From positions 23,916-87,915 of the forward strand of contig MPMP01000005.1 in NCBI GenBank assembly GCA_002238565.1: 64,000 bases of DNA. The letters are read 5' to 3'. Within the stretch, counting starts at the first letter, position 1, and the number at the start of each line of letters is the position of its first letter. Shown here in pieces: positions 1 to 53,204 of the stretch. The stretch comes from Albidovulum sp. bin36 (GTDB taxonomy: Bacteria > Pseudomonadota > Alphaproteobacteria > Rhodobacterales > Rhodobacteraceae). The translations under genes were made by a program, and so were the position numbers. A model generated the notes under the pieces. The model was not told the DNA's origin, searched no databases, and saw only the letters and a list, made by a program, of their open reading frames with translations.

Positions 1-1
1 G

Positions 2-448: not shown

Positions 449-450
449 CA

Positions 451-4577: not shown

Positions 4578-4588
4578 GGAGACAGGAA

Positions 4589-34013: not shown

Positions 34014-35669
<1,656 letters not shown>

Positions 35670-38499: not shown

Positions 38500-41259
38500 T
38501 TATCCTGTCTGCGAATCGACCGCTATAAGCACGCCTGCATCCGATCCACGCCCTTTCAGATAGTTTACAATCTCCCTAGCGGCCGTTGCTGTGTCCTTCC
38601 GGGCCTGCACCCATTCCAACTGCACGGCCCGTTCCAGTGCATTGACCGCATCGCGGGAAAGTTTTCCCTCCGGCGGCAGCGCTTCGGAGTCTAGAAGACG
38701 CACTCTGCAAAGGCCCCCAAGAAGCAGGATCGCGTACCGAAATAAAGTGCGGTTGTAAATCTCATTATTCCATTCACCATCTACGAGTTGGTCCAAAACA
38801 CGTACGCTGAAACTAACCGCATGAACCAAGTTTTCGTGATTTTCCAATACAACCGCCGCTGCCGAATCTCTTCTACTGATAATGTGTGAGAGGCAAGCAA
38901 GCCGCTCAACTCGTTGTCCCGCCTTCTTCTGCCCAAGAATGAGTTGAACTACTCTTCTAATCCGAAGTGAATCGGAAACGGTACGTCCGAGACCATGATA
39001 ACATGCAACTGCCGCCGATGCATCCGTGGCTCCTAGTGGACCAGCCGGTCCAATAGACAAACCCATCGCGGCCTTCTCAACTTCTTCGATAATACGGTCC
39101 TGGATAGAGTCTGGACACCGCACAAAACACCATGTCGCCGGCAGATGTCGCCTGTTTGTCACTCCTATTCCTTCCACTGTGGGCTGCCGAATGAAAGCAT
39201 CCAGATCGGTGGCTAGCGCTTCCAAGACTCTGTTCAGCTTGTGTTCGATTCTTGTCAATTTCTCTTCACCGATCTGATCCTTTCCCGGTAATTGTCCCGA
39301 AGAACTCACTACGTATTTGCGCTGGTTGGGGATTCCAATTCCATTCAAAGAAGTCCTACTTAGCTTGCGGTACAGTCTGTCTCGAACATCTGCTTTGTCT
39401 TCGTAGGAGTGTGCGGACAGAAACGCGTCCAGCGCTACCTCGGTGCTCCGAGGCCCATGCCAAAAGCGGGGATATGCCTCGTACTCCACGAGATCCGGCG
39501 CAAGTCTGAAAGGACATGCCTGGCGCTGATCGCCGTCTCGGAAGAGATCGCTCCACCTGAAACGGAGAGGTGATCGTCGTAGCGGTTCGTAGCTTCTAGA
39601 GGAAACCGTGCAAGTAGCGAACCCTGAGACCGGTCGTTGTTCGGCATAAACCTGCACCTCGTACCTCGTTGGCGGATGCTCCTTCAGCGGTTGGATTTTT
39701 TCGCGTATCTCCTCTCCCTTCTTCAGCCTGAAGTCGAGGCATCGCATCCGTGCTGGTATCTCAAATAGGATCGGCTCCTGTGTTCGATAAGTCTTTCCCG
39801 CTTCGACGATCTCCCCCGCCGGTATTAGCGTAGACCAGTTTCGAGTTCCGTCAGGCTGTCTCGCCCAGAGATCGAGTTGCGGTAGGTGATCCAGATACGG
39901 GGCCTCGCCTCGTTCTAGGCGCCGTGCGGCTTCGAGTGCTCCCCAAGCAGCGCAGGCGGCATCGAGCTTCAAAGTATTTTCCGAGGAAACGCCTTGTTTC
40001 TCCAAGGCCAGCTCCAATGCTCGTGCCATTGTGCAGCCCGCGGGTGAGTACAGCAGCACATATCTGGATTCTTTAGCGGCGTGTACCGCCTCCTCCGGCA
40101 GCGGTTCCTCGTGAAACGGTGATGGCTGCCCGATTGCGATCTTCTTCCAGGTTCCCGTATCGTCTCGTATGGCATTCTGAGCGTCGAAATGCCCTAGGGT
40201 GCTTTCCCCGGAAGCAATGCTCTCGACCAATCTCGTCTGCCGATGGAGAAGTTCCATTGCCTCGTGTCCGCTAACTGCCTGGATCTGCCTTCGGATCTCG
40301 TGAATTCTAGCGGTCCAATCCCCTTTCCATTTCAGCCGCTGACCATACTCCTTTCGTTCTGGGAGCAATTTTCCCTTCCACTCGTGGAGCAAGAGTTGTT
40401 GGGTCTCAACTCCTTTCGTTCCGGCGATTAACACTACGAGGGAAATTGGTTTACTTGAGTTGTCTCGGGCTTGTTGCAGTATCCTTCTTGCTCGACTCGC
40501 AGCGGCAATTTCGTGGTGCTTTGTTCTCTCGTTCAGGATTCCGAGAACGACGGCGACTGGCCGCCAGAGAAGGTCAATGGTGCATCCGCCCAACCTTGTT
40601 CGAGCGAGTTCATCAAGGATTCGCGCCTGCGCGGCTTCGTCTATCGCCGGGACATCGGATACAACAAGCACAGCACGTCGGGCGCTGGGTGCTGTACCCA
40701 TTACCCCGGCCCGTAGCGCTTCGCCCAGAGTAGGCCTGCGAACTGGCTCTAGGTTGTCGCGGGTTGCTGCGTCGGTCCCTGGCTCTCGCTTGTTCCGTGC
40801 TCGATCACTTTCCCCAATATTGTTTGCGGCTAGGAGCAGGGCGGAGTTGCGCTCCGATGTTGAACCCGGACGACGTTCGCCCTTGGCATACGGTGCAGCC
40901 GATTGCGTTAATTCGTCGCCATGTAGATTGGCGTCGCTGCCGCCTTCCGGTATTTCCCATAGGCCACCTTCGATTTCCTCCCAAATTTGGCAAAACTCGA
41001 GACGGCGATCGGGATCGCCCACATGCTCGCCGTATCCGGCTCCGCGACCGTAAGGCGAGCGCTCTGCCTGCGGCCCTGCAATGACATCACCGAGTTGTTC
41101 CGTGTCGTCGATTCGGGCAGCGACGGAACGCCATCCGAACCGGTTGCAGTGCACCTCCTCGGACTCGTCGGGCGCATGCCCGGGCTCCCGCGCGCAAAAA
41201 TCTTGAAGACCGTTCAGATCGAGGCCTGCCAGGGTCTTCGTTCGACGCTCCTTCTTCAT
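38500..41259 (-). CDS. large (about 919 aa) protein with a degenerate Hsp70/actin-fold-like N-terminal region and a helical C-terminal region; fifth gene of the candidate defence operon
   Basis: Start placed at ATG 41259 (ATGA overlap with the upstream stop); ATG 41280 is the alternative. Motifs occur in Hsp70 order: LAGLDLNG, VLVVSDVPAIDEAAQARILDELARTRLGGCTIDLLWRPVAVVLG, LVVLIAGTKGVE, YVLLYSPAGCTMARAL. Coding status is strong; the fold call is by eye only. Confidence 0.6.
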   Translation of the reverse strand: MKKERRTKTLAGLDLNGLQDFCAREPGHAPDESEEVHCNRFGWRSVAARIDDTEQLGDVIAGPQAERSPYGRGAGYGEHVGDPDRRLEFCQIWEEIEGGLWEIPEGGSDANLHGDELTQSAAPYAKGERRPGSTSERNSALLLAANNIGESDRARNKREPGTDAATRDNLEPVRRPTLGEALRAGVMGTAPSARRAVLVVSDVPAIDEAAQARILDELARTRLGGCTIDLLWRPVAVVLGILNERTKHHEIAAASRARRILQQARDNSSKPISLVVLIAGTKGVETQQLLLHEWKGKLLPERKEYGQRLKWKGDWTARIHEIRRQIQAVSGHEAMELLHRQTRLVESIASGESTLGHFDAQNAIRDDTGTWKKIAIGQPSPFHEEPLPEEAVHAAKESRYVLLYSPAGCTMARALELALEKQGVSSENTLKLDAACAAWGALEAARRLERGEAPYLDHLPQLDLWARQPDGTRNWSTLIPAGEIVEAGKTYRTQEPILFEIPARMRCLDFRLKKGEEIREKIQPLKEHPPTRYEVQVYAEQRPVSGFATCTVSSRSYEPLRRSPLRFRWSDLFRDGDQRQACPFRLAPDLVEYEAYPRFWHGPRSTEVALDAFLSAHSYEDKADVRDRLYRKLSRTSLNGIGIPNQRKYVVSSSGQLPGKDQIGEEKLTRIEHKLNRVLEALATDLDAFIRQPTVEGIGVTNRRHLPATWCFVRCPDSIQDRIIEEVEKAAMGLSIGPAGPLGATDASAAVACYHGLGRTVSDSLRIRRVVQLILGQKKAGQRVERLACLSHIISRRDSAAAVVLENHENLVHAVSFSVRVLDQLVDGEWNNEIYNRTLFRYAILLLGGLCRVRLLDSEALPPEGKLSRDAVNALERAVQLEWVQARKDTATAAREIVNYLKGRGSDAGVLIAVDSQTG

Positions 41260-42866
41260 GGTATCGCGTCCTGTAGCCATGCCTCGATGTGTTCTCCGAA
41301 GTGATCCATTGGCTTGGTTAACTCGCTGCCCGGTTCAAAGGCCGCGCGCATGAGCCGTGCGTCTCGTCGTGTCGACTCCGGCTCACTGCCGCTTCTATCG
41401 AACACCGAGCGCAGAGCAACGCCATACACCTTGCCGAGTGACTTCTCCTTACGCTCAATGAGGTCGCACGTACGCTCAAGGCCCGCAAGATCTTCATCCT
41501 CTGTGGCTTTGCGAAAGCTGTGCAGCGCGTAGATTGGCATCCGTCCAAAGGTCCGTCCGTTCCAGGACTTGACGTGAAGGGAGGCGGCTGTTCCCGGCAG
41601 TCGGCCTTGATCGCTGTCCATCATGGGTGAATGCACCTCGATGGTCCACTGATGCCCACCTTTGACCGGGAAAAACACCATTGCGGGCTCATGTAACGCG
41701 ATCCACCTTCCCTCGCGCTGTTCGTTACGTGCTTGGAGTGGCATTTCTGCAAGGGGCGTCATGAGTTGCGTTTGCATCCGACATGCCACCAGAGCAAACA
41801 AGAAGCAGAATTCATCCCAGCTGCGGCTCTGCCAGATCCACACCAAATCTCTTGCCCGGTCGTGCCTTATCAGCGCTTGCCAAGCGGCCCAGACGGTCTG
41901 GTACCGCGCGTCGTGCTGAAGAACGTAGTTGGGTGATACGCCCGGCTGAACGGTCCTCACACCGCGCAGTCGCAAGTCGCGGTCCAAAGTTCGGCATCGC
42001 CGGCGGTAAGCTGCGAGCAATTCGCGTTTCTTCGGATCCCGTACGACGTACTCTCCGACCAACCGCGTGCTCATCTCCGCGACCGTCCGCAGGGTCCGGT
42101 TCTCAAGGGTGTCGAGGTTCTCCTCGCGCACCGGCGCGAGTATTGTCTGCCGGGTGCCGGCGCGCTCCGCAGTATCGCGTCCGGGCTGCTTCAAGAGCCA
42201 GCGGAGGGTCCGATCATCCATCTCCGTCGCAGCGCCGACTGGGACAGTTCGGTGCACTCTGCGCAGCACCTTGCGCGGGCTTGCGGATAGATCGGCCAGC
42301 ACCGGATGGAGCGTTCGGGCGTGCTCGACCAGCACCTCCATCGTTGGCTCGTAATCCTGACCGTACGGATCCAAAAACGCTTCGTCGACCCACTGCCAGA
42401 CTCCATTCGCCGTCTTCTCCATCCATCGCTCAACCGCGTGGATCCGCCCAGAGAGGGTCCAGATTGCCGTTAGCCATCGCTCGTTTGATCGCCCAGCGTC
42501 TTTGATTGCATGCTTGCTTGCGTGTGGTTTTTCGAGAACATCGCGGTGCCATTCGATGCCCCTGAATGATTTACCACGGTTGTCTTCGATGCGTAGCGTA
42601 TGCTTGAGACGGGAGGATATCGGAACTTGATAGATCCGGAAGCCCTCCAAGGCACCGCCCGCCTCTCCAACCATGGCGAGCATGATGCGTTTTCCGGCGC
42701 TTACGTTTTGCGGAGGCGGGCACTTTGACGCCGGCAGGTACTTCCACGCTATGAGGGTATCGGCGTCCGCAGGGGTGGACTGTGGTTTCCAACTCGCCTC
42801 GTTGTAGAGCGCCTCCGCGAGATCCCAAACGCCTGCGAGAGCGAAGGCGTGTGGCTCCAAACTCAT
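41256..42866 (-). CDS. McrC/DUF2357-like partner of the McrB-like ATPase
   Basis: 536 aa. LDTLENRTLRTV resembles the McrC/DUF2357 DTxENR-hhK motif. SWDEFCFLFALV resembles the helix preceding the PD-(D/E)xK core. ATGA overlap with the upstream AAA+ gene. Confidence 0.65.
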   Translation of the reverse strand: MSLEPHAFALAGVWDLAEALYNEASWKPQSTPADADTLIAWKYLPASKCPPPQNVSAGKRIMLAMVGEAGGALEGFRIYQVPISSRLKHTLRIEDNRGKSFRGIEWHRDVLEKPHASKHAIKDAGRSNERWLTAIWTLSGRIHAVERWMEKTANGVWQWVDEAFLDPYGQDYEPTMEVLVEHARTLHPVLADLSASPRKVLRRVHRTVPVGAATEMDDRTLRWLLKQPGRDTAERAGTRQTILAPVREENLDTLENRTLRTVAEMSTRLVGEYVVRDPKKRELLAAYRRRCRTLDRDLRLRGVRTVQPGVSPNYVLQHDARYQTVWAAWQALIRHDRARDLVWIWQSRSWDEFCFLFALVACRMQTQLMTPLAEMPLQARNEQREGRWIALHEPAMVFFPVKGGHQWTIEVHSPMMDSDQGRLPGTAASLHVKSWNGRTFGRMPIYALHSFRKATEDEDLAGLERTCDLIERKEKSLGKVYGVALRSVFDRSGSEPESTRRDARLMRAAFEPGSELTKPMDHFGEHIEAWLQDAIP

Positions 42867-44932: not shown

Positions 44933-47900
44933 CAGTCAGAGGAGCCTTCGTTGGTGGGTGGACGACCGGCGGTAGGTCCGTTCGGGTCGTTGTCGTCGGG
45001 GCTAGGTGATGGCACAGTTTCGGCAGCGGGAGGTTCGTCTTTCGGTGCTGTACGCTGATCCTCCATTGAGTGGAGGACTTCGCGCTTCTCGCGGATCTGT
45101 TCATCAAGCATGTGGAGCATCGTTCGGGACTCCGTTGCGGTCCGCTCCAGTTCCTTTAGCGTCTCTTGGAGTGTGTTCTGTCGAGTTTCCAAGGCTGGAA
45201 TCAGCGCTTCCAACTCGGTGTTGCGCTCTTCCAGTCGTTTAACTGCCGCGCGCTGTTCGGCCGCCTCGGCACGAGTTGCCGCGAAATCTCTCTCGGCCCG
45301 GTTCAAATCTTCCCCAGCTGCGACGCGCTTCGCTTCGATGTCGTTCCGTCTCTCTTCGAGGACCGAGAGGTCTTCACGAATGGAAGCTACTTGCATCTGG
45401 AGATCCTTGATACGAATCTTGTATTCTTCGATCTGACTCCTCAGACTTGCCAGTTCCGTGGATCGCTGCGCTGTTTGCCCCTCGAGGGAGGCGCTTGCGA
45501 CGCGTGCTTCCTCAAGGGCTTGCTGTCCCGCTGCCTGCTCGGCGGCGAGATCGCGAACCTCGATCATCAGTGCATCTTTGCGCTCTTGCAAGGTGTCGGC
45601 ATCGGCTTGAATGCGTCGAAGCTGGGTTTGGGCATCGGTTCGTCGTGTTTCGGTCTCCGCCAGACTCTGCTCCAGCGCGTCCAACTCGGTCTGCCGCTCC
45701 GCAATTCGAGCCTCGGTGTCGGTCCGGGCCTGTCGTACCTCACCTAACCGTTCTAGCTCGGCTGCTATCTCACCCCGGAGTGTCTGCAATTCGGTACTGG
45801 TTTGATTCACCGACAGCCGCTGGGAGTCGAGTCGACTCTCGATGGAAGCTTCTTGCGTCTGGATATCCTTGATGCGAATCTTGTATTCTTCAATCTGACT
45901 CCTCAAACTTGCCAGTTCCGTGGATCGCTGCGCTGATTGCCCCTCGAGGGAGGCGCGTGCGACGCGTGCTTCCTCAAGGGCTTGCTGTCCCGCTGCCTGC
46001 TCGGCGGCGAGATCGCGAACCTCGATCATCAGTGCGTCTTTGCGCTCTTGCAAGGTGTCGGCGTCGGCTTGGATGCGTCGAAGCTGGGTTTGGGCATCGG
46101 TTCGTCGTGTTTCGGTCTCCGCCAGACTCTGCTCCAGCGCGTCCAACTTGGTCTGCCGCTCCGCGATTCGAGCCTCGGTGACGATCCGGGCCTGCAGTAC
46201 CTCATCTAACCGTTCTTGCTCGGCTGCTTTCTCACTCCGGAGAGTCTGCAATTCGGTATTGGTTTGATTCACCAACTGCTGCTTGGTGTCGAGTGGACCC
46301 TCGATGGAAGCTTCTTGCGTCTGGAGATCCTTGATACGAATCTTGTATTCTTCGATTTGACTCCTCAAACCTGCCAGTTCCGTGGATCGCTGCGCTGTTT
46401 GCCCCTCGAGGGAGGCGCGTGCGACGCGTGCTTCCTCAAGGGCTTGCTGTCCCGCTGCCTGCTCGGCGGCGAGATCGCGAACCTCGATCATCAGTGCATC
46501 TTTGCGCTCTTGCAAGGTGTCGGCGTCGGCTTGGATGCGTAAAAGCTGGGTTTGGGTATCGGTTCGTCGTGTTTCGGATTCCGCCAGACTCTGCTCCAGC
46601 GCGTCCAACTTGGTCTGCCGCTCCGCGATTCGAGCCTCGGTGACGGTCCGGGCCTGCCGTACCTCATCTAACCGTTCTTGCTCGGCTGCTCTCTCACCCC
46701 GGAGAGTCTGCCATTCGGCATTGGTTTGATTCACCAACTTCTGCTTGGTGTCGAGTCGACCCTCGATGGAAGCTTCTTGCGTCTGGAGATCTTTGATACG
46801 AATCTTGTATTCTTCGATTTGACTCCTCAAACTTGTCAGTTCCGTGGATCGCTGCGCTGATTGCCCCTCGAGGGAGGCGCGTGCGACGCGTGCTTCCTCA
46901 AGGGCTTGCTGTCCCGCTGCCTGCTCGGCGGCGAGATCGCGAACCTCGATCATCAGTGCATCTTTGCGCTCTTGCATGGTGTCGGCGTCGGCTTGGATGC
47001 GTCGAAGCTGGGTTTGGGCATCGGTTCGTCGTGTTTCGGTCTCCGCCAGACTCTGCTCCAGCGCGTCCAACTTGGTCTGCCGCTCCGCGATTCGAGCCTC
47101 GGTGACGGTCCGGGCCTGCCGTACCTCATCTAACCGTTCTTGCTCGGCTGCTATCTCACCCCGGAGAGTCTGCAGTTCGGTACTGGTTTCATTTACCAAC
47201 AGCCGCATGGTGTCGAGTCGAACCTGGAGACCATTTGCCTCGCGCAGTCGCCCCTCAAGGGCCGCTACGTTTTTCTGCAGATCGTCCCGATGTGCAATGA
47301 GCGAGACGACTTCCTCTACCAGTGCGGCTCGGCGTTCGGTGGTTGTCCCAATTTCGGTGGCGATTTCATCCTTTTCTGCTTGGGCGGCTTGAATTCCCGC
47401 GAGTATGCCGGTGCGCTGTTCCTCTGCTCCTGCCCGACGGGCTTCGGCGGCCTTGGCTTCTGAGTTCACTCCCGCGAGCGTGGCGCGGGCGGTACTGAGC
47501 TCCAGTTCCACGTCTTCGAGACGGCGCTGCTCCCTTGCCAGCCTGCTCACCTCAGCTTGCAACTGATCTCGATCAGCCGTCAGTCGATCACGCTGCGAAA
47601 CCAGATCGTCTCGCGCCATCTCCGCAGTCGCGGCGGATTGTTCGGCTCTCGCGCGGCGATCCTCAATCTCCTCGATTTCTGAAAGGAGTGCGTCGCGTCG
47701 AGTCTCAGCCTTCAGAAGGGCGTCTCGCGTCGACGAGAGGTCAGCCTGAACCCGCTCTCGTGTTGCGAGGCTGTCCTGGATGTCTTGTTCCTCGTCCCGT
47801 AGCTCCGAGAGCTTTTTTCTCGCATCCTGCACCGCGATTTCCAAGCTGCCGAGTTCGGCGCGTGCGGCCTGGGCGAGGCGCAACTCGCTTCCAAGCTGCG

Positions 47901-48135
47901 TAAGCTCCGTCCGGAGGGTGTCGCGACGGTCGGCAAGCTCGGCAATCTCAGACCGGTCCGCTGCCAGAGCCTTCTCTATGCGGGCACGGTCATCTCGAAT
48001 GGCACCGAAGTTGCCTTCGAGTTCATTAACCTTCCACACAAGAAAGCCCAGCAGGCCAATTGTCGCCAGCGCGGCGAGACCCGCGGTCCACGTATATGCG
48101 CGGGACTTACGAAAGGTCTCGTTCGATGAGGTCAA
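44932..48135 (-). CDS. giant (1067 aa) coiled-coil protein with an N-terminal hydrophobic anchor, four 154-aa tandem repeats and a Pro/Asp-rich tail
   Basis: TTG start at 48135 with GGAGAG 5 nt upstream. Anchor YTWTAGLAALATIGLLGFLVWKV. Almost continuous E/R/A/L/Q-rich heptad-like sequence. Tail ...PKDEPPAAETVPSPSPDDNDPNGPTAGRPPTNEGSSD. Confidence 0.85.
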   Translation of the reverse strand: MTSSNETFRKSRAYTWTAGLAALATIGLLGFLVWKVNELEGNFGAIRDDRARIEKALAADRSEIAELADRRDTLRTELTQLGSELRLAQAARAELGSLEIAVQDARKKLSELRDEEQDIQDSLATRERVQADLSSTRDALLKAETRRDALLSEIEEIEDRRARAEQSAATAEMARDDLVSQRDRLTADRDQLQAEVSRLAREQRRLEDVELELSTARATLAGVNSEAKAAEARRAGAEEQRTGILAGIQAAQAEKDEIATEIGTTTERRAALVEEVVSLIAHRDDLQKNVAALEGRLREANGLQVRLDTMRLLVNETSTELQTLRGEIAAEQERLDEVRQARTVTEARIAERQTKLDALEQSLAETETRRTDAQTQLRRIQADADTMQERKDALMIEVRDLAAEQAAGQQALEEARVARASLEGQSAQRSTELTSLRSQIEEYKIRIKDLQTQEASIEGRLDTKQKLVNQTNAEWQTLRGERAAEQERLDEVRQARTVTEARIAERQTKLDALEQSLAESETRRTDTQTQLLRIQADADTLQERKDALMIEVRDLAAEQAAGQQALEEARVARASLEGQTAQRSTELAGLRSQIEEYKIRIKDLQTQEASIEGPLDTKQQLVNQTNTELQTLRSEKAAEQERLDEVLQARIVTEARIAERQTKLDALEQSLAETETRRTDAQTQLRRIQADADTLQERKDALMIEVRDLAAEQAAGQQALEEARVARASLEGQSAQRSTELASLRSQIEEYKIRIKDIQTQEASIESRLDSQRLSVNQTSTELQTLRGEIAAELERLGEVRQARTDTEARIAERQTELDALEQSLAETETRRTDAQTQLRRIQADADTLQERKDALMIEVRDLAAEQAAGQQALEEARVASASLEGQTAQRSTELASLRSQIEEYKIRIKDLQMQVASIREDLSVLEERRNDIEAKRVAAGEDLNRAERDFAATRAEAAEQRAAVKRLEERNTELEALIPALETRQNTLQETLKELERTATESRTMLHMLDEQIREKREVLHSMEDQRTAPKDEPPAAETVPSPSPDDNDPNGPTAGRPPTNEGSSD
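45380..47225 (-). repeat. four tandem in-frame copies of a 462-bp (154-codon) unit inside the coiled-coil gene
   Basis: The landmark TTGTATTCTT recurs at 45419, 45881, 46343 and 46805 (period exactly 462). In the protein, SQIEEYKIRIKD and LDEV.QAR..TEARIAERQT.LDALEQSLAE.ETRRTD.QTQL each occur four times. Copies differ by scattered substitutions. Confidence 0.95.
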
Positions 48136-51100
48136 GACAACTCTCCAAGTCCTTGTCCAACTCGTCCACCCAGAAGCGCCGGACCTTCCAGCCGAGGGAA
48201 TGCAGCTGGTGATCCCGCCAATGGTCGTCCAACTTGCGGTTACCGTCGATGTCCTGGTGCCAGCGGCGTCCGTCGACTTCGATGTCGATCCTTATGCCGC
48301 TTGCGCCGAACACGGCGAAATCGAGCCGGCGACCCGCGATCTCGTATTGTGGTTTGGGATCCAAGCCGCGGGCGCGCAACGCTTCGTAGACCCGACGTTC
48401 CCAAGTGCTGTCGAAAACTCCTTCGTCGGGTGGTTGGCGCGATTCGGTGGCACGAGCGGCGAGGCTTTGCAATCGCCGCACGGTTCCTCTACGAGCAAAG
48501 TCAAGATCGCCGAATACATGGGCGATCGCACGCGCCCGGCTGATTGCCACGTTCAGGCGCCGCCAGTCTTTCTGAAGGAAAGAGATTGCGCTTGGAGCTA
48601 TTCGGTCGTGAAGGACAGGCGAGAACAAGATCAAGTCCCGTTCCTGGCCCTGGAATGCGTCAACCGTGCCCACACGCAAGTTCGCGGCGTGTCGGCGATT
48701 CTCAGGGATATGCGTGGTGATGGCCTCGGCCAGAGCCGCTACCTGTGGACGAAAGGGAGAGATCACACCGACACTACCATCGTAATCGTGCTTGAGAAGA
48801 AGTTGCTCAAGGTGTGTGACGATGGCGCGAGTTTCCGCTGCATTAACATTGCCGCGTGCAGTCTCTACTCCAGTAGCCGGCGGAACGTGCGTCCAATGGA
48901 GGCCAGGGCGTGTGGTGGTTGGTACGCGCAATCCATCTTGGTCGGCAGCGACACGAAGCTTGCCGCCGTAGAAATCCTGGTTAATGTAGGCAACGATATC
49001 GGCCGCCGAGCGGTACTGATCTCGCAGCATCACTGCGGGAACGTCCGGGTTGGATCGAGCGAGATCAAACAGGCTCTTGCGGCTCTGCGCGAACCGCCCC
49101 ATCCCAGTCTGGGGCAATTGCTGCGCCGCCATCAGGTTTCGGTCCTTTGCGATGCCGACCTGAGGGATAAAGGCGAGTTGTCTGTCGTCACCTACGATGA
49201 CGGCGCGACGCGCACGGGCGAGAACCGGCAGCGCGGATCCAATGTCGCATTGGCTCGCCTCATCGAAGATCGCCAGATCGAACAATCCGTCTTCCAGTGG
49301 GAGCCGTCTCGGCGCTCCGAGGACGGAGGCGAGCCAGAGCGGTCGATGCAGCAGCACGCTCTTGGCTAACTCGCGGTCTACCGCGATGTGACCGTGCAAC
49401 TGAAGATCGTCGTGGGCGTTGGAGAGTGCCAAACGCGTTCTTTCGTCTGGAGTGCTGAGGGCCGTGACACGGCGGCCGAGTACTTGCCGAGCCAACGACG
49501 CAATCTCTTGAGTTGACGTGACTGGGTTTTCTATGGGGCCAAAATTCGCGAGACTAGCGCGTGTTTCAGCTACTCGTTCCCGGAGCGCCACCGTCGGGAT
49601 CGTGCCGTCATCCATATCTGGAGTGGCGAGTGACGGCGCGAACCCAAGCCAACTGAGCAGCCGGCGCCAAAATCCCGATGATGACGGTTCGGCCACCAAT
49701 ACGGTCGTATCCGGGAGACCGGCGAGCTGCCGGGATTGCAAACGCTCAATATCGTCGGCAAGTTGGAGGCGGAGTCTTCGCTCCCTCGCGATCCGCTCAA
49801 GTGTATCCAAGCGCGCGTTGGCCCGCTTGTCGAGTTCTGCCGAGACATCGGACTCCGGAGCGGCGACACTCGTCCCTGCGGGCTCGGAGACGAGATCGCG
49901 AAGCACGCCGGCCATGTCGCGGTCTACGTCACGGGCGGGGTCGAGCGTGCGCACGATGAAAGATGCGCCGGGAGCAATGCTGGACAGGCGCTGTTCGACT
50001 GCATCCAGGGCTTGATGGTTCTTGGATGCGACGATTACTGTTTGCCCGGCCCAAAGTGCAGTCGTGGCAATGGCTACGATCACTTGGCTCTTCCCGGTGC
50101 CGGGCGGCCCGGTTACGACTGAGAGGGGGGTGCGCATTGCTTGGGCGGTTGCCTCGATCTGCTCCATGTTGAGCGGACCGACATTGACCGGTGGAACTGG
50201 ATTGACAGGTGCCTGATTGGGCAGACCAATGAGCGGTGCGAGGGCGGTACGGCAGAGGCGATCAGACGGCCAAGCGGCAATGGAATCGAGATCGCGTACC
50301 GCGCCTGCGGTGAAGGTGGAACCCAATGACAGGAACAGGGCGACGGCATCGTGGATTCCTGTTTCGCTAGGGTCAACCATGGCGGCGAAGCTGTTGCCCA
50401 CGAGGTTCCCCCTGATGGCGCGCGCTGCCGCCTCACGAAGTCGCCCGAGAAACTCCTCGCCCGGCAGTCCTGATCCTCCATTCCCGCGGAAGAGGTTTTG
50501 AAGTTCGCTCCGTGTCCACGCGGTGACCCGCGCCGTACTCCGCACCCAATCGGGATTCACGAGGACATCGTCGGCGTCAACTCGCAGTTCGATGAAGTCT
50601 CCTTTCCGGCTCCACACAGCAGCGAGAAGCCCGACCGGTCGGATCGCCGGGGCGCCAGATTGACGCCCCAGATCCAGCGGCCAGCCCAAAGCGACTCCGT
50701 TCTCTTCGTCATCGCGCCGGATCATCGCCTCGCGGAAGGCACCTGGTAGGTCGTCGGCCCGAATTCGTACAATGACTTCCTCGTCGCTTGCCGGAAACAG
50801 GTTTCCTTCGCCGGCAAGAAGTTGGAAGGTTTCACCATGGCGGTCGCCGGTCTGAGTCAGAGCCCCTCGTGGGTCGTACAGGAGCGCGGATTTGTAGTAG
50901 CGGAGCAACGCGTGGGGATCGAACTCGGATTCCGATGCGGCTGAGTCTTCGTCAGGTAGCACATCTGCCGCTACCGGCTTTGTGGTGAAGGTGGCTGGCG
51001 AGGCGATCAGAGGATCGGAAGGCGCGTTGCCGGAGTGGACTGGACGCAGTGCCGAGGTTGAGGACGGCGCGAGGGGTCGGTGCTGGGCACGCCATCGATG

Positions 51101-51262
51101 ATCACGGCCTAACGAGACCACGCCCCTGGCTTGCAATTCAGCAAGTTCTCGGCCAACGGCCTCCCGCCGCGCACCATCGAACGCAACGTCGAGCAGGACC
51201 ACCAACTCGTTGGTGGTTCGACCCAGTGGAAATGCCTCGATCGTCTTCAGCAGGAGCGACAT
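48107..51262 (-). CDS. SF1 (Upf1/DNA2-like) helicase with an N-terminal winged-helix-like segment and a C-terminal DUF559/Vsr-like endonuclease domain
   Basis: 1051 aa. VTGPPGTGKSQ (motif I), AIFDEASQC (II), VIVGDDRQL (III), VDAFQGQERD (V), RRLNVAISRAR (VI). C-terminus YEALRARGLDPKPQYEIAGRRLDFAVF...IDIEVDGRRWH...LGWKVRRFW. Confidence 0.85.
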   Translation of the reverse strand: MSLLLKTIEAFPLGRTTNELVVLLDVAFDGARREAVGRELAELQARGVVSLGRDHRWRAQHRPLAPSSTSALRPVHSGNAPSDPLIASPATFTTKPVAADVLPDEDSAASESEFDPHALLRYYKSALLYDPRGALTQTGDRHGETFQLLAGEGNLFPASDEEVIVRIRADDLPGAFREAMIRRDDEENGVALGWPLDLGRQSGAPAIRPVGLLAAVWSRKGDFIELRVDADDVLVNPDWVRSTARVTAWTRSELQNLFRGNGGSGLPGEEFLGRLREAAARAIRGNLVGNSFAAMVDPSETGIHDAVALFLSLGSTFTAGAVRDLDSIAAWPSDRLCRTALAPLIGLPNQAPVNPVPPVNVGPLNMEQIEATAQAMRTPLSVVTGPPGTGKSQVIVAIATTALWAGQTVIVASKNHQALDAVEQRLSSIAPGASFIVRTLDPARDVDRDMAGVLRDLVSEPAGTSVAAPESDVSAELDKRANARLDTLERIARERRLRLQLADDIERLQSRQLAGLPDTTVLVAEPSSSGFWRRLLSWLGFAPSLATPDMDDGTIPTVALRERVAETRASLANFGPIENPVTSTQEIASLARQVLGRRVTALSTPDERTRLALSNAHDDLQLHGHIAVDRELAKSVLLHRPLWLASVLGAPRRLPLEDGLFDLAIFDEASQCDIGSALPVLARARRAVIVGDDRQLAFIPQVGIAKDRNLMAAQQLPQTGMGRFAQSRKSLFDLARSNPDVPAVMLRDQYRSAADIVAYINQDFYGGKLRVAADQDGLRVPTTTRPGLHWTHVPPATGVETARGNVNAAETRAIVTHLEQLLLKHDYDGSVGVISPFRPQVAALAEAITTHIPENRRHAANLRVGTVDAFQGQERDLILFSPVLHDRIAPSAISFLQKDWRRLNVAISRARAIAHVFGDLDFARRGTVRRLQSLAARATESRQPPDEGVFDSTWERRVYEALRARGLDPKPQYEIAGRRLDFAVFGASGIRIDIEVDGRRWHQDIDGNRKLDDHWRDHQLHSLGWKVRRFWVDELDKDLESCLDLIERDLS

Positions 51263-51413: not shown

Positions 51414-51842
51414 TCATGCCTGCGCAACCGACCAGGGATTGATTACATCCACGCCAATGCCGTCGAAATCCCGCACGTTGCGCGTAACTAGGACGGCGCC
51501 CTTCGAGCGGGTTATCGCGGCGATCTGGCAGTCGGCTTCGCCGATCGGGCGACCTGCGAAGCGGCGGTCTGCAGCAATGCCGGCATAGGCGCGGGCGGCG
51601 GCGCTGTCGAACGGCAGGATGCGTTCCGAGAAGCCGAAGTCGAGCCACCGGGTCATGGCAGCCACTAGCCTGTCCCGGCGCCTGCCTGCCGGCATGATCG
51701 CGATGCCGTAAAGAAGCTCCGCTTCGCTGACCGCAGTCAGGTACATGTACATTGCATCCTGATCCGCGATCCAGGCAGCCATGGCAGGAGCCGGTTCCGG
51801 GCGCATAAGTTCGGAAACCACGTTCGTGTCAAGCACCAGCAT
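51414..51842 (-). CDS. vapC: PIN-domain toxin VapC/FitB
   Basis: MLVLDTNVVSELMRPEP...LTAVSEAELLYG...DCQIAAITRSKGAVLVTRNVRDF. Confidence 0.88.
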   Translation of the reverse strand: MLVLDTNVVSELMRPEPAPAMAAWIADQDAMYMYLTAVSEAELLYGIAIMPAGRRRDRLVAAMTRWLDFGFSERILPFDSAAARAYAGIAADRRFAGRPIGEADCQIAAITRSKGAVLVTRNVRDFDGIGVDVINPWSVAQA

Positions 51843-51852
51843 CCGATGCGCC

Positions 51853-52098
51853 TCAAGAGAAGTCCGGAGGCTCGCGCATCGGGCCGCGCGGGGGCAGGTC
51901 TAGCTCGACCCCGCCAAGGGGTGCGAAACACTCCCGGGTGAACTCCGCCAAGTTCCGGGGGGCGGACTGGCTGTCGCTCACGGCCTCGCGAAGGATGATA
52001 CGCACCTCCTCTTCCATTGAGCGGCTGTGCGCGGCGGCGCGGACGCGCAGGCGCGTACTCACGTAGTCATCGAGATTGCGGATGGTGATGCTTGCCAC
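51853..52098 (-). CDS. vapB: VapB/FitA-type ribbon-helix-helix antitoxin
   Basis: 81 aa. (M)ASITIRNLDDYVSTRLRVRAAAHSRSMEEEVRIILREAV. GTG start with GGAGG 8 nt upstream. Ends 10 nt upstream of vapC. Confidence 0.82.
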   Translation of the reverse strand: MASITIRNLDDYVSTRLRVRAAAHSRSMEEEVRIILREAVSDSQSAPRNLAEFTRECFAPLGGVELDLPPRGPMREPPDFS

Positions 52099-53127: not shown

Positions 53128-53204
53128 AGTGCGGGTGTGCTTCTTGCAAATAGGATAAGATTTTGCGTTTGGCTGCTTAGCCTGCTTCCGGGCCATGGCC
53201 GACG

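What the first reader, a model, noticed from the sequence alone, without database searches (positions are those of the whole stretch)
38500..51262. Five-gene, translationally coupled McrBC-derived operon with helicase-nuclease, two anchored coiled-coil proteins and an Hsp70-like protein: candidate novel defence system
Five consecutive minus-strand genes have overlapping or abutting stops and starts: a 29-nt overlap at 48107/48135, TGATG at 44932, ATGA at 42863-42866 and ATGA at 41256-41259. The genes are as follows. (1) An SF1 Upf1/DNA2-like helicase (GPPGTGKS, FDEASQC, VGDDRQL, QGQERD, NVAISRAR) with a winged-helix-like N-terminus and a DUF559/Vsr-like C-terminal nuclease. (2) A 1067-aa coiled-coil protein with an N-terminal hydrophobic anchor. 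(3) An anchored coiled-coil protein fused to a McrB-type AAA+ domain (GISGTGKS, LLDEMNLA, MNEDES...LDRSNVLRF). (4) A McrC/DUF2357-like protein (DTLENRTLR). (5) A protein of about 920 aa with Hsp70-like motif order. From memory, the nearest described relatives are the CoCoNuT (coiled-coil nuclease tandem) branch of McrBC type IV restriction systems, which combine coiled-coil McrB, McrC, Upf1-like helicases and Hsp70 homologues. I cannot match this locus to a defined subtype. The membrane anchors, the separate repeat-expanded coiled-coil protein and the apparently degenerate catalytic motifs seem unusual. The context supports an immunity role: IS remnants, vapBC, a Panacea antitoxin and AT-richer composition.
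Basis: partly seen in the sequence, partly recalled or inferred. Interest (0 to 1): 0.9.

Follow-up and report, generated by a model that had tools for sequence, protein, structure and literature searches.

The report
Type III-B CoCoNuT defence operon
The five overlapping genes are real, but they are an ordinary member of an already described, computationally predicted and still untested bacterial immunity system, the Type III-B CoCoNuT, and not a new system.

Summary
All five minus-strand genes and their 29-, 1-, 4- and 4-nt overlaps are confirmed.

- **What it is.** Domain content and gene order match the Type III-B CoCoNuT of Bell et al. 2024 (eLife, PMC11090510):
  - CnuH: weak wHTH-like N-terminus, UPF1-like helicase and a fused Vsr-like nuclease.
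  - CnuA: a separate coiled-coil protein.
  - CnuB: coiled coil plus a McrB-type GTPase carrying the diagnostic NxD motif (MNEDE).
  - CnuC: DUF2357 with a nuclease motif that lacks its lysine.
  - CnuD: a separate protein whose AlphaFold model matches only Hsp70/DnaK structures.
- **How common.** At least 540 species genomes encode a CnuB relative, mostly Alphaproteobacteria. Of 54 related loci with full flanks, 44 carry CnuH, CnuB, CnuC and CnuD. The window comes from an Albidovulum MAG.
The membrane anchors are family-wide: 116 of 120 CnuB homologues and 45 of 48 CnuA-position ORFs have them. The degenerate CnuC and CnuD motifs are expected for this subtype.
- **What is locus-specific.** The only such feature I noticed is a 4 × 462-bp tandem expansion in cnuA. 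The unit is 154 aa, exactly 22 heptads.
- **Small additions.** I did not find the N-terminal transmembrane helices mentioned in Bell et al. CnuA and CnuB show opposite flanking-charge bias around those helices.

Function is inferred; no Type III-B system has been tested. Verdict: new member of a known kind, modest interest.

The parts
48107..51262 (-). cnuH (CnuHE): 1051-aa helicase-nuclease fusion. The exact start is uncertain; some homologues begin about 20 aa further in.
   Evidence: Pfam AAA_11 (1.1e-14), AAA_12 (5.6e-34), MTES_1575 (1.1e-14) and DUF559 (4.7e-07). Best solved relatives are Sen1, SMUBP-2, DNA2 and Upf1. Orthologues of 49-83% identity sit at the same operon position.
51083..51262 (-). 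CnuH N-terminal conserved domain of about 60 aa, possibly a winged helix-turn-helix
   Evidence: Conserved across 22 homologues. Only sub-threshold matches were found, all to wHTH proteins: ArsR 0.11, Stf76 0.54, HTH_Crp_2 0.0048. No structure model was made.
48464..50173 (-). CnuH UPF1-like SF1 helicase core (aa 364-933). It contains a poorly conserved insertion of about 200 aa after Walker A (aa ~440-640, nt 49343-49945).
   Evidence: Motifs GPPGTGKS, DEASQ, VGDxxQL, FQGxExD and NVAxSRARA are at least 85% conserved in 50 homologues. No conservation is seen across aa 440-640. AAA_11 covers 333 residues against 249 profile positions.
48116..48400 (-). CnuH C-terminal Vsr/DUF559-like PD-(D/E)xK endonuclease. 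It is the only nuclease in the operon with an intact motif.
   Evidence: Pfam MTES_1575 and DUF559. LDxA...DxExDG...H...RD...GWxVxRFWV is at least 85% conserved in 50 homologues. In the window the residues are D981, D993, E995 and D997.
44932..48135 (-). cnuA: 1067-aa protein with one N-terminal hydrophobic helix (aa 13-36, nt 48028-48099) followed by about 980 aa of coiled coil. TTG start.
   Evidence: Hydropathy 1.85 over 19 aa. AELRQKD fraction is 0.72 and hydrophobic periodicity peaks at 3.50 residues, power 2.52 against a median of 0.13. Only coiled-coil-type database hits were found. A TTG start, a 29-32-nt overlap with cnuH and a conserved TSSN..RKSR-TM N-terminus occur in L001, L003 and L004.
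45380..47225 (-). Tandem repeat inside cnuA: 462 bp x 4.0 copies, 94% matches. The unit is 154 aa, exactly 22 heptads.
   Evidence: TRF score 3314. Copies differ at 14-21 of 154 residues. The closest relative's CnuA is 605 aa, which equals 1067 minus 3 x 154. An independent assembly, L086, reproduces nt 1181-3204 of the gene with 0 mismatches.
42863..44932 (-). cnuB: 689 aa. N-terminal transmembrane-like helix (aa 3-27, nt 44852-44926), coiled coil (aa ~35-295, nt 44048-44830) and a McrB-type AAA+ GTPase domain (aa ~298-689).
   Evidence: Hydropathy 2.74. PADLOC PDC-M26A 4.2e-45. hhalign of a 72-sequence domain alignment against E. coli McrB gives Prob 86%, E 4.8e-06 over 167 columns spanning Walker A, Walker B and the signature motif. 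More than 3187 homologues were found, some named 'McrB family protein' by NCBI.
43391..43408 (-). NxD GTPase signature (MNEDES; N510, D512, E513). This replaces the NxxD of classical McrB and is diagnostic of the clade that includes the CoCoNuTs.
   Evidence: Read directly. GTMNEDE is present in 118 of 120 homologues. It aligns to MNTAD of E. coli McrB. The definition is in PMC11090510 section 7.
41256..42866 (-). cnuC: 536-aa McrC homologue. DUF2357 region aa 183-264 (nt 42075-42320) with DTLENR at aa 252-257. C-terminal alpha/beta domain aa ~365-536 with a degenerate nuclease motif (H392...E410-V-H412).
   Evidence: Pfam DUF2357 scores 24.4 bits against a cut-off of 23.3. Five of the six best Foldseek hits of a low-confidence model are McrC chains, E 0.012-0.044. 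Across 65 homologues the motif columns read D (34 of 65)...E (47 of 65)-x-Q/H/R; lysine is not among the four commonest residues at the third position.
38500..41259 (-). cnuD: 919 aa from Met8 (the ORF runs to 41280). Hsp70-like NBD/SBD (aa ~8-580 in ORF numbering) plus a C-terminal all-helical domain (aa ~770-915, nt 38536-38973).
   Evidence: No Pfam or PADLOC hit and no meaningful NCBIfam hit. The AlphaFold2 model has mean pLDDT 59, with 70-90 over aa 200-580 and 770-915. The 50 listed Foldseek PDB hits are Hsp70-family chaperones (DnaK, BiP, Hsc70, Hsp110, Ssb), apart from two ciliary-complex chains whose identity is not shown. E values reach 1.3e-09 and alignments span 430-640 columns. 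The family has 232 representative clusters.
51414..52098 (-). vapB (51853-52098) and vapC (51414-51842) toxin-antitoxin pair directly upstream. This is context, not a core part of the system.
   Evidence: Pfam FitA-like_RHH 5.9e-19 and PIN 9.3e-13. The same pair precedes cnuH in the closest relative L004 but not in L001 or L003.

Best explanation
The locus is a Type III-B CoCoNuT (coiled-coil nuclease tandem) operon, cnuH-cnuA-cnuB-cnuC-cnuD. This is a McrBC-derived immune system that has been predicted computationally but not tested.

**Shown here:**
- Gene content, order and translational coupling.
- An intact UPF1-like helicase fused to an intact Vsr-like endonuclease (CnuH).
- A McrB-family GTPase with the NxD signature behind a coiled coil (CnuB).
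- A McrC homologue whose own nuclease motif lacks the catalytic lysine (CnuC).
- An Hsp70-fold protein whose Hsp70-type phosphate-loop positions look degenerate by eye (CnuD).
- A pure coiled-coil protein (CnuA).
- A conserved N-terminal hydrophobic helix on both CnuA and CnuB.

**Inferred mechanism:**
1. By analogy with E. coli McrBC, CnuB forms a GTP-dependent AAA+ ring. The DUF2357 domain of CnuC plugs into it and stimulates GTP hydrolysis.
2. Because CnuC cannot cut, cleavage is delegated to the CnuH helicase-nuclease. CnuH would translocate 5'-3' on single-stranded RNA or DNA and nick or degrade it.
3. CnuH would be recruited through coiled-coil contacts with CnuA and CnuB.
4. CnuD acts as the sensor or adaptor, binding foreign RNA, ribosome-associated RNA or an unfolded phage protein, as Bell et al. 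propose.
5. The transmembrane helices hold the assembly at the inner membrane, where phage or plasmid nucleic acid enters.

The outcome would be destruction of invader nucleic acid, or abortive infection if that fails. I put identity as Type III-B at about 0.9, a defence role at about 0.7, and the mechanistic details at no more than 0.4 each.
For: **Architecture.** It matches the published definition point by point.

**CnuH.**
- Pfam AAA_11, AAA_12, MTES_1575 and DUF559.
- Nearest solved relatives are Sen1, SMUBP-2, DNA2 and Upf1.
- Helicase and Vsr motifs are at least 85% conserved in 50 homologues.

**CnuB.**
- GTMNEDE (NxD followed by E) in 118 of 120 homologues.
- G[IV]SGTGKS and [IV]LLDEMN in 120 of 120.
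- hhalign to E. coli McrB: Prob 86%, E 4.8e-06.

**CnuC.**
- DUF2357 above the Pfam cut-off.
- McrC chains are five of the top six Foldseek hits.
- The (D/E)xK lysine is missing.

**CnuD.** The listed Foldseek hits are Hsp70-family chaperones apart from two unidentified ciliary-complex chains, with E down to 1.3e-09.

**Synteny.**
- Identical order in R. leguminosarum, Ruegeria profundi and a metagenomic relative.
- Of 54 loci with full flanks, 54 have CnuC, 53 CnuD and 45 a full CnuH; 44 have all of them.
- At least 540 species genomes encode a CnuB relative.

**Taxon.** An Albidovulum MAG, an alphaproteobacterium. Bell et al. report Type III-B mainly in Alphaproteobacteria.

**Defence context.**
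- vapBC, a Panacea antitoxin and an IS remnant in the window.
- A Shedu SduA_C protein and a ResIII/restriction-endonuclease gene next to the R. leguminosarum copy.
- A Type II CoCoNuT (the Obs locus) protected Pseudomonas aeruginosa from RNA phages PP7 and LeviOr01 and DNA phage MPK7 (bioRxiv 10.64898/2026.04.06.716636).

**Membrane anchor.** A transmembrane-like helix occurs in 116 of 120 CnuB homologues and 45 of 48 CnuA-position ORFs.
Against: - No Type III-B CoCoNuT has been tested experimentally, so the defence role and target are inference only.
- I could not place the CnuB GTPase domain on Bell et al.'s tree. The Type III-B sheet of their supplement is truncated in the held copy.
- Three defining domains are unconfirmed. 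The CnuC immunoglobulin-like N-terminal sandwich has pLDDT below 35 over aa 1-220. The CnuH wHTH gave weak hits only. The CnuH OB fold was not modelled.
- Sequence-only links are weak. The 13-sequence CnuB domain profile (A3) found no McrB among PDB sequences. CnuC matched E. coli McrC only over the DTLxNR motif (E 0.024).
- The transmembrane helices are not part of the published description. They rest on hydropathy alone.
- PADLOC models did not call a named system; the best match was candidate PDC-M26A.
Confidence: 0.8

Rival explanations
1. It is a distinct, unclassified CoCoNuT-like subtype. It has the Type III-B domain set but is defined by membrane anchoring of CnuA and CnuB, so it would form a new variant rather than belong to Type III-B proper.
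For: Transmembrane helices are not mentioned for Type III-B in the main text or in the held domain table of Bell et al.. Tree placement could not be tested.
Against: The anchors occur in essentially the whole family, including Rhizobium, Ensifer, Bradyrhizobium and Ruegeria. Alphaproteobacteria are the group in which Bell et al. report Type III-B. The simplest reading is that Type III-B has always had these helices and they were not annotated. Every other component and the order H-A-B-C-D are identical to the definition.
Confidence: 0.06
2. These are two independent neighbouring systems. One is a stand-alone Hhe/ProA-like helicase-Vsr defence protein (gene 1). The other is a separate coiled-coil McrBC-like module (genes 2-5).
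For: Gene 1 matches PADLOC MkoA (5.3e-55), PDC-S37 and Hhe (7.6e-24), and NCBIfam ProA and Hhe. Several of these are named single-protein anti-phage defences, and the Hhe and ProA matches span the helicase and Vsr regions.
Against: - The scores are far below the family cut-offs: ProA 158 against 1500, and Hhe 102 against 2000. They cover only the shared helicase and Vsr core.
- cnuH overlaps cnuA by 29 nt here and by 29-32 nt in L001, L003 and L004.
- A full CnuH accompanies CnuB, CnuC and CnuD in 44 of 54 full-context loci. It stays linked even where the order is B-C-D-H.
Confidence: 0.05
3. It is not an immune system. It would be a membrane-tethered housekeeping machine, such as a chromosome or plasmid segregation or cytoskeletal apparatus, or an RNA quality-control complex. 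NCBI's label 'chromosome segregation ATPase-like protein' hints at the former.
For: NCBI names for CnuB homologues. SMC, Rad50 and crescentin profile hits on genes 2 and 3. UPF1-like helicases and Hsp70s have housekeeping RNA and protein quality-control roles.
Against: - The SMC and Rad50 hits cover coiled-coil segments only and score far below cut-off: 117 bits against 567. No SMC head domain is present.
- Distribution is patchy: the capped scan confirmed 540 relatives among 185,579 species genomes, a lower bound.
- The locus sits among toxin-antitoxin genes, IS remnants, Shedu and restriction genes.
- A related Type II CoCoNuT does protect against phages.
Confidence: 0.06
4. It is a CoCoPALM-type system. 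CoCoPALM is the sister group of NxD McrBC systems in which McrB is fused to an FtsB-like transmembrane plus coiled-coil domain and is linked to pilus-assembly signal peptidases.
For: CnuB has an N-terminal transmembrane helix followed by a coiled coil and an NxD GTPase, which resembles the CoCoPALM McrB fusion described.
Against: No signal-peptidase or pilin-assembly gene lies in or beside the operon. No FtsB/DivIC family hit was found. The CnuH-Vsr, CnuA and Hsp70-like CnuD genes define Type III-B, not CoCoPALM.
Confidence: 0.02

Closest known systems
Type III-B CoCoNuT (Bell, Sahakyan, Makarova, Wolf, Koonin, eLife 2024; PMC11090510)
   Same: - The same five proteins in the same order.
- CnuH(E): UPF1-like helicase with an insertion after Walker A and a directly fused Vsr-like nuclease.
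- CnuA: a separate coiled-coil protein with no other recognisable domain.
- CnuB: coiled coil plus an NxD McrB GTPase.
- CnuC: DUF2357 with an inactivated PD-(D/E)xK motif.
- CnuD: a separate Hsp70-like protein with a helical C-terminal domain.
- No TerY-P genes. Alphaproteobacterial host.
   Different: - CnuA here is 1067 aa because of a 4 x 154-aa tandem expansion. Relatives are 407-911 aa.
- CnuD carries an extra N-terminal insertion of roughly 85-90 aa that is shared only with close relatives.
- The N-terminal transmembrane-like helices of CnuA and CnuB are family-wide but absent from the published description.
- Tree placement, the CnuC Ig-like domain and the CnuH OB fold could not be verified here.
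Type III-A and Type II CoCoNuTs, including the Pseudomonas aeruginosa Obs locus (bioRxiv 10.64898/2026.04.06.716636)
   Same: NxD coiled-coil CnuB, a nuclease-dead CnuC, a UPF1-like CnuH, and (in III-A) an Hsp70-like module. [quoted passage not shown]
   Different: - Types II and III-A use a separate CnuE HEPN RNase, SmpB-like and RelE-like domains on CnuH, and usually a TerY-P triad.
- III-A fuses the Hsp70 module to CnuC.
- Here the effector is a Vsr-like nuclease fused to the helicase. No HEPN or TerY-P domain was hit in the operon or in the ten flanking ORFs scanned.
Classical McrBC type IV restriction enzyme (E. coli K-12 McrB and McrC)
   Same: An AAA+ GTPase with Walker A and B motifs and an Asn/Asp signature that aligns to E. 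coli McrB. The partner protein has the McrC N-terminal DTLxNR motif and DUF2357. The two genes overlap.
   Different: - NxD instead of NxxD.
- A coiled coil and transmembrane helix replace the N-terminal modified-DNA reader.
- The McrC nuclease motif is degenerate.
- Three extra conserved partners are present: helicase-nuclease, coiled-coil protein and Hsp70-like protein.
Hhe, ProA and Mokosh MkoA helicase-nuclease defence proteins
   Same: A UPF1-like SF1 helicase core. For Hhe and ProA, also a C-terminal Vsr/DUF559-type nuclease.
   Different: Scores are far below the family cut-offs. CnuH has none of the long N-terminal regions those profiles cover, and no Mokosh partner (MkoB) profile matched any of the five genes. 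CnuH is embedded in a conserved five-gene operon.
Shield (ShdA): transmembrane helix, long coiled coil and RmuC-like nuclease
   Same: A membrane anchor followed by a long coiled coil in a nuclease-based defence system. Bell et al. mention it as a possible CoCoNuT partner.
   Different: ShdA is a single protein carrying its own nuclease. No homology was detected here, so the resemblance is in architecture only.

Membership tests
Type III-B CoCoNuT | CnuB is a McrB-like AAA+ GTPase with the shortened NxD signature, usually followed by E or D | tested here: met
   MNEDES at aa 509-514. GTMNEDE in 118 of 120 homologues. hhalign to E. coli McrB gives Prob 86%, E 4.8e-06, with NEDE aligned to NTAD.
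Type III-B CoCoNuT | CnuB carries only a long coiled coil at its N-terminus, with no CSD or YTH domain | tested here: met
   AELRQKD fraction is 0.76 over aa 35-295. Only coiled-coil-type Pfam hits were found and no CSD or YTH. An extra transmembrane-like helix lies at aa 3-27.
Type III-B CoCoNuT | CnuH is a UPF1-like SF1 helicase with a large helical insertion after Walker A | tested here: met
   PDB best hits are Sen1, SMUBP-2, DNA2 and Upf1. A non-conserved insertion of about 200 aa lies at aa 440-640. Its helical nature was not modelled.
Type III-B CoCoNuT | [quoted passage not shown] | tested here: met
   MTES_1575 (1.1e-14) and DUF559 (4.7e-07) at aa 955-1049. Catalytic-type residues are conserved in 50 homologues. 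The next gene is the coiled-coil protein.
Type III-B CoCoNuT | Sul7s-like wHTH domain at the CnuH N-terminus | tested here: inconclusive
   A conserved 60-aa N-terminal block exists. Only weak wHTH matches were found: ArsR 0.11, Stf76 0.54, HTH_Crp_2 0.0048, BLACT_WH 0.0021.
Type III-B CoCoNuT | OB fold (without stalk) in CnuH | not tested
   No structure model of CnuH was made, and there was no sequence-family hit in aa 61-360.
Type III-B CoCoNuT | Separate coiled-coil protein CnuA with no other recognisable domain | tested here: met
   Gene 2 has heptad periodicity of 3.50 and only coiled-coil hits. A coiled-coil-like ORF fills the CnuH-CnuB gap in 41 of 48 loci. It also has an N-terminal hydrophobic helix.
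Type III-B CoCoNuT | CnuC contains the McrC N-terminal domain (DUF2357) | tested here: met
   Pfam DUF2357 E 1.9e-05, 24.4 bits against a 23.3 cut-off. The DTLENR motif aligns to NEDTLANR of E. coli McrC. McrC chains top the Foldseek list.
Type III-B CoCoNuT | CnuC retains a PD-(D/E)xK fold with inactivating replacements | tested here: inconclusive
   The motif degeneracy is met: H392...E410-V-H412 here, and D...E-x-Q/H/R across 65 homologues, with lysine not among the commonest residues. The fold is only weakly supported. The model has mean pLDDT 46, and hits to McrC and restriction endonucleases have E of 0.012 or worse.
Type III-B CoCoNuT | Immunoglobulin-like beta-sandwich at the CnuC N-terminus | tested here: inconclusive
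   AlphaFold2 pLDDT is 21-33 over aa 1-220, with almost no secondary structure. The alignment had only 12 sequences.
Type III-B CoCoNuT | Separate CnuD with an Hsp70-like NBD/SBD | tested here: met
   The 50 listed Foldseek PDB hits are Hsp70-family chaperones apart from two unidentified ciliary-complex chains. E reaches 1.3e-09, prob 1.00, and 430-640 columns are aligned. The gene is separate and overlaps cnuC by ATGA.
Type III-B CoCoNuT | HEAT-like helical repeats at the C-terminus of CnuD | tested here: inconclusive
   aa 770-915 are modelled as stacked helices with pLDDT 73-91. No fold match to HEAT proteins was obtained, because Hsp70 dominated the search.
Type III-B CoCoNuT | Gene order cnuH(E)-cnuA-cnuB-cnuC-cnuD and absence of a TerY-P triad | tested here: met
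   Order confirmed. It is the same in L001-L004. It is consistent with the consecutive accessions TBW38397, TBW38399 and TBW38400. No VWA, PP2C or kinase hit was found among the ten flanking ORFs scanned between 36.2 and 56.6 kb.
Type III-B CoCoNuT | CnuB GTPase domain falls in the Type III-B clade of the reference phylogeny | not testable with these tools
The supplement sheet is truncated in both held copies.
Classical McrBC (type IV restriction) | NxxD GTPase signature, an N-terminal modified-DNA-binding domain on McrB, and a catalytically intact PD-(D/E)xK in McrC | tested here: not met
   The signature is NxD. The N-terminus is a transmembrane helix plus coiled coil. The (D/E)xK lysine is absent. 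The locus is McrBC-derived, not a classical McrBC.
CoCoPALM | FtsB-like domain on McrB plus an associated SipA-like signal peptidase or pilus-assembly gene | tested here: not met
   No FtsB/DivIC hit. No signal-peptidase gene in the operon or among the flanking ORFs scanned.
Hhe / ProA / Mokosh | Whole-protein match to the family model, together with the long N-terminal regions those profiles cover or the Mokosh partner protein | tested here: not met
   NCBIfam Hhe scores 102 bits against a 2000 cut-off, and ProA 158 against 1500. PADLOC MkoA, MkoC and Hhe hits cover only the helicase or helicase-Vsr core, and no MkoB profile matched any of the five genes.

The most novel reading that the evidence does not exclude
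Type III-B CoCoNuTs may be integral-membrane machines with two oppositely oriented anchors.

- **CnuB.** Basic residues lie on the C-terminal side of the helix in 116 of 116 homologues. That predicts N-out/C-in, with a cytoplasmic coiled coil and GTPase.
- **CnuA.** The conserved RKSR-type cluster lies on the N-terminal side and the C-terminal flank is acidic in 31 of 43 homologues. That predicts N-in/C-out, which would put its 400-1000-aa coiled coil in the periplasm.

CnuA would then be an envelope-side sensor or ruler. Its length could be tuned by heptad-preserving repeat expansion, as in this window. It would couple events at the cell envelope, such as phage adsorption or DNA entry, to a cytoplasmic GTPase and helicase-nuclease effector. 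The evidence is a positive-inside heuristic only.
Probability: 0.12. Interest if true: 0.7.

Novelty: new member of a known kind. Interest (0 to 1): 0.3.

Why it matters
The finding mainly corrects a novelty claim: the locus belongs to a published subtype, so it should not be pursued as a new defence system.

It still has some value.
- **An untested class.** Type III-B CoCoNuTs are completely uncharacterised experimentally. They are predicted to combine a McrBC-type GTPase, a UPF1-like helicase-nuclease and an Hsp70-like sensor, a combination that may target RNA.
- **Membrane anchoring.** That points to a membrane-tethered mode of action and suggests concrete experiments.
- **A natural length variant.** CnuA length can change through heptad-exact tandem duplication. 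This offers a natural variant for testing what the coiled coil does.
- **A practical warning.** The repeat breaks every short-read assembly examined, so this gene will often be truncated in MAGs.

Tried and rejected
- **PDB sequence searches with CnuB.** The single sequence and the 13-sequence GTPase-domain profile gave no McrB hit, only coiled-coil or P-loop noise. Profile-profile comparison with E. coli McrB was needed. It was weak with 13 sequences (Prob 36%) and adequate with 72 (Prob 86%).
- **CnuC against E. coli McrC.** hhalign gave nothing with 12 sequences. With 65 sequences it found only the DTLxNR motif.
- **AlphaFold2 of CnuC.** The 12-sequence alignment gave a poor model (pLDDT 46), so the Ig-like domain could not be judged.
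- **Word-indexed homologue searches.** They found only 10-13 relatives for CnuD and CnuC. The exhaustive search was used for CnuD instead.
- **Promoter and terminator scans at both operon ends.** Uninformative: no sites above shuffled expectation.
- **Bell et al.'s Type III-B locus list.** I looked for Ruegeria, Albidovulum, Shimia and Tateyamaria in the held supplements and for R. leguminosarum in the eLife copy. The sheet is truncated in both copies.
- **Literature on PADLOC candidate PDC-M26.** None held.
- **Exact-sequence look-up of the 1067-aa CnuA.** Not in the collection. This is explained by assemblies breaking inside the repeat.
- **Tandem repeats in the second-longest CnuA (L034, 911 aa).** None found, so repeat expansion is not shown to be general.
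- **SMC, Wadjet or Lamassu reading (LmuB and JetC hits).** Rejected, because the hits are coiled-coil only.
- **Rfam and tRNA scans of the whole window.** Empty.

Full report
**1. Observation**

The window carries five consecutive minus-strand ORFs:
- 48107-51262, 1051 aa
- 44932-48135, 1067 aa, TTG start
- 42863-44932, 689 aa
- 41256-42866, 536 aa
- 38500-41280, 926 aa

- There is a 29-nt overlap between genes 1 and 2. A GGAGAG Shine-Dalgarno-like site lies 5 nt before the TTG start.
- TGATG joins genes 2 and 3.
- ATGA joins genes 3 and 4.
- ATGA joins genes 4 and 5, if gene 5 starts at its eighth codon (MKKERR...). Its homologues start there.

All quoted sequence motifs are present.

**2. 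What each gene is**

*Gene 1 (CnuH).*
- Pfam finds AAA_11, AAA_12, MTES_1575 and DUF559.
- The closest solved proteins are Sen1, SMUBP-2, DNA2 and Upf1, that is, the UPF1-like SF1 clade.
- In 50 homologues every helicase motif and the Vsr-type nuclease residues (LDxA...DxExDG...H...RD...GWxVxRFWV) are at least 85% conserved. The roughly 200 residues after Walker A are not conserved.
- The first 60 residues are conserved. They give only weak matches, all to winged-helix proteins.

*Gene 2 (CnuA).*
- It has one N-terminal hydrophobic helix followed by about 980 residues with strong heptad periodicity. The best period is 3.50 residues and 72% of residues are A, E, L, R, Q, K or D.
- All database matches are coiled-coil noise against SMC, Rad50, JetC and LmuB.

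*Gene 3 (CnuB).*
- It has a strongly hydrophobic N-terminal helix, a coiled coil of about 260 residues and an AAA+ domain.
- That domain aligns to E. coli McrB across Walker A, Walker B and the Asn/Asp signature. hhalign gives Prob 86%, E 4.8e-06 over 167 columns.
- The signature is MNEDE, the shortened NxD plus E form. It is present in 118 of 120 homologues.

*Gene 4 (CnuC).*
- It passes the Pfam threshold for DUF2357, the McrC N-terminal domain.
- Its low-confidence AlphaFold model still retrieves McrC chains as five of the six best Foldseek hits.
- Its nuclease motif is degenerate. It reads H392...E410-V-H412 here. Across 65 homologues it reads D...E-x-Q/H/R, and lysine is not among the commonest residues at the third position.

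*Gene 5 (CnuD).*
- It has no Pfam or PADLOC hit and no meaningful NCBIfam hit.
- Its AlphaFold model is confident over aa 200-580 and 770-915.
- The 50 listed Foldseek hits are Hsp70-family chaperones (DnaK, BiP, Hsc70, Hsp110, Ssb), apart from two ciliary-complex chains whose identity the listing does not show. E values reach 1.3e-09, and the alignments cover both the nucleotide-binding and substrate-binding domains.

**3. Comparison with the literature**

Bell et al. (eLife 2024, PMC11090510) define CoCoNuTs as the coiled-coil branch of NxD McrB systems. They describe Type III-B as follows:
- a UPF1-like CnuH with an N-terminal wHTH, an OB fold and a directly fused Vsr-like nuclease;
- a separate coiled-coil protein CnuA with no other domain;
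- a coiled-coil CnuB;
- a CnuC with an Ig-like domain, DUF2357 and an inactivated PD-(D/E)xK domain;
- a separate Hsp70-like CnuD with HEAT-like repeats;
- no TerY-P triad;
- occurrence mainly in Alphaproteobacteria.

Table S1 of the preprint lists representatives TBW38397.1 (CnuHE), TBW38399.1 (CnuB) and TBW38400.1 (CnuC). Their consecutive numbering implies the order H-A-B-C. The window's operon matches this definition in every feature I could test.

Three features remain unverified: the Ig-like domain, the OB fold and the Sul7s-like character of the wHTH. Tree placement could not be tested because the Type III-B sheet is truncated in the held supplements.

**4. Conservation**

- CnuB has more than 3187 homologues. 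These include full-length proteins from Ruegeria, Shimia, Tateyamaria, Sinorhizobium, Rhizobium, Ensifer, Bradyrhizobium and Aminobacter.
- The same five-gene order is present in R. leguminosarum, Ruegeria profundi and a metagenomic relative. All five proteins find their counterparts.
- A scan of one genome per species found at least 540 genomes with a relative. Most are Alphaproteobacteria. Gammaproteobacteria, Desulfobacterota, Planctomycetota and Verrucomicrobiota also occur.
- In an HMM census of 80 loci, 54 had full flanks. Of these, 54 had CnuC, 53 CnuD and 45 a full-length CnuH; 44 had all of them.
- The CnuH-CnuB gap held a coiled-coil-like ORF in 41 of 48 cases.

The window's proteins are in GenBank from an Albidovulum sp. 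MAG. Their names are generic: 'AAA domain-containing protein', 'chromosome segregation ATPase-like protein' and 'hypothetical protein'.

**5.

*Membrane anchors.* These are family-wide. 116 of 120 CnuB homologues and 45 of 48 CnuA-position ORFs have an N-terminal transmembrane-like helix. I found no mention of this for Type III-B in Bell et al.'s text or domain table. It is therefore a small addition to the description, not a peculiarity of this locus.

*Flanking charge.* The bias is opposite in the two proteins.
- In CnuB, basic residues lie only after the helix, in 116 of 116 homologues.
- In CnuA, a conserved RKSR-type cluster precedes the helix and the following flank is acidic, in 31 of 43 homologues.

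By the positive-inside rule this hints at opposite orientations. It is a heuristic only.

*Degenerate motifs.* The degenerate CnuC and CnuD motifs are expected for Type III CoCoNuTs. The GTPase, helicase and Vsr motifs are intact.

*Repeat-expanded CnuA.* This is real and is the only locus-specific feature I noticed.
- It is a 462-bp unit in 4.0 copies with 94% matches.
- The unit is 154 aa, exactly 22 heptads, so the coiled-coil register is preserved.
- The result is the longest CnuA of 45 compared; the others are 407-911 aa.
- The closest relative has 605 aa, which equals 1067 minus 3 x 154.
- Five independent short-read assemblies carry the 3' part of the gene with zero mismatches. Every one of them ends inside the array. 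One spans at least 3.4 copies.

**6. Mechanism**

*Shown:* the parts list, the intact and degenerate motifs, translational coupling and conserved synteny.

*Inferred,* from the E. coli McrBC structural paradigm as summarised in Bell et al. and from their proposal:
1. A CnuB GTPase ring is regulated by the CnuC DUF2357 domain.
2. Cleavage is delegated to the CnuH 5'-3' helicase and Vsr nuclease.
3. CnuD acts as an RNA or protein sensor with little or no ATPase activity.
4. CnuA and CnuB coiled coils act as scaffolds.
5. New here: the assembly is tethered to the inner membrane.

*Support for a defence role:*
- The context in the window: vapBC, a Panacea antitoxin and an IS remnant.
- The context in the R. 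leguminosarum locus: a Shedu SduA_C protein and a ResIII/restriction-endonuclease gene.
- A 2026 preprint in which a Type II CoCoNuT protected P. aeruginosa against RNA and DNA phages.

I found no experiment on a Type III-B system.

**7. Rivals**

- *A separate new subtype.* Unlikely, because the anchors span the whole alphaproteobacterial family.
- *Two independent adjacent systems, an Hhe-like helicase plus a McrBC-like module.* Contradicted by the conserved overlap and co-occurrence and by far-sub-threshold Hhe and ProA scores.
- *A housekeeping or segregation role.* This rests only on coiled-coil noise and generic names.
- *CoCoPALM.* Excluded by the absence of signal-peptidase or pilus genes and by the presence of CnuH and CnuD.

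**8. Verdict**

The claim of novelty is not: the locus is a new member of the already described Type III-B CoCoNuT kind.

Interest is modest at 0.3. The class is untested, and two details add something: the family-wide membrane anchors with opposite charge bias, and the heptad-exact repeat expansion of CnuA.

Noticed in passing
window 45380-47225 (inside cnuA): The tandem repeat is 462 bp x 4 at 94% identity. The unit is 154 aa, exactly 22 heptads, so duplication keeps the coiled-coil register. Amino-acid differences between copies outnumber synonymous ones (14-21 against 3-11 codons) and appear to cluster near the unit boundaries. This CnuA is the longest of 45 compared.
   Followed up: yes
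L086-L090, independent assemblies of the same locus: All five short-read contigs that carry this exact cnuB end inside the cnuA repeat array, with 0 mismatches to the window. The gene will usually be truncated in MAGs. The four-copy count is fully spanned only in the window's own assembly; L086 supports at least 3.4 copies.
   Followed up: yes
window 48028-48099 (CnuA) and 44852-44926 (CnuB); relatives P0001-P0120 and L006-L085: The N-terminal transmembrane-like helices are conserved family-wide but show opposite flanking charge. CnuB has K/R only after the helix (116 of 116). CnuA has an RKSR-type cluster before it and an acidic flank after it (31 of 43). I did not find this mentioned in Bell et al.
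   Followed up: partly
window 51414-52098: A vapB (FitA-like RHH) and vapC (PIN) pair lies 151 bp upstream of cnuH on the same strand. The same pair precedes cnuH in the closest relative L004, but not in Rhizobium or Ruegeria. It may be a hitch-hiking or regulatory toxin-antitoxin pair.
   Followed up: partly
window 52873-53732: A SocA/Panacea-domain antitoxin gene (53205-53732) is followed 8 nt downstream by a 107-aa ORF (52873-53196) with no Pfam hit. The ORF is a candidate cognate toxin of unknown family.
   Followed up: no
window 37355-37981: A 208-aa remnant of a Tn5-type transposase (dimerisation domain only) lies about 500 bp downstream of cnuD. It is present at the same place in three of the independent assemblies (L086-L088).
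   Followed up: partly
L041, L042, L048, L052, L055, L057, L064 (mostly Paracoccaceae and other marine MAGs): In seven related loci the full CnuH is replaced upstream of cnuB by a protein of about 270-330 aa. It keeps only the Vsr-like nuclease, behind an unrelated N-terminal region of roughly 190 aa. This is a helicase-less variant of the operon.
   Followed up: partly
L059, L066, L067, L068, L071, L083 (Akkermansia, Tichowtungia, Kiritimatiellia, Lentisphaeria): In Verrucomicrobiota-related genomes the helicase-nuclease gene lies downstream (order B-C-D-H) instead of upstream. This shows linkage without fixed order.
   Followed up: no
window 40726-41205 (CnuD aa ~25-185): CnuD here and in its close relatives is 912-929 aa, against about 780-860 aa in most of the family. 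The difference looks like an N-terminal insertion of roughly 85-90 aa inside the Hsp70-like domain. It is modelled with pLDDT below 35 but contains invariant Gly-rich residues (G78, R79, G80, G82, G84, G88).
   Followed up: no
L001/L002 (Rhizobium leguminosarum) 1-5200: The Rhizobium copy of the operon sits directly beside a Shedu-type SduA_C protein, a ResIII/restriction-endonuclease protein and a NOV_C protein, and is followed by resolvases. This is a typical defence island.
   Followed up: no
window 27475-35732: The low-coordinate flank looks, by reading the translations only, like a cobalamin-biosynthesis cluster followed by an ABC-F (EttA-like) ATPase gene at 34014-35732. No cobalamin riboswitch or any other Rfam family reached threshold anywhere in the window, and there are no tRNA genes.
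   Followed up: partly
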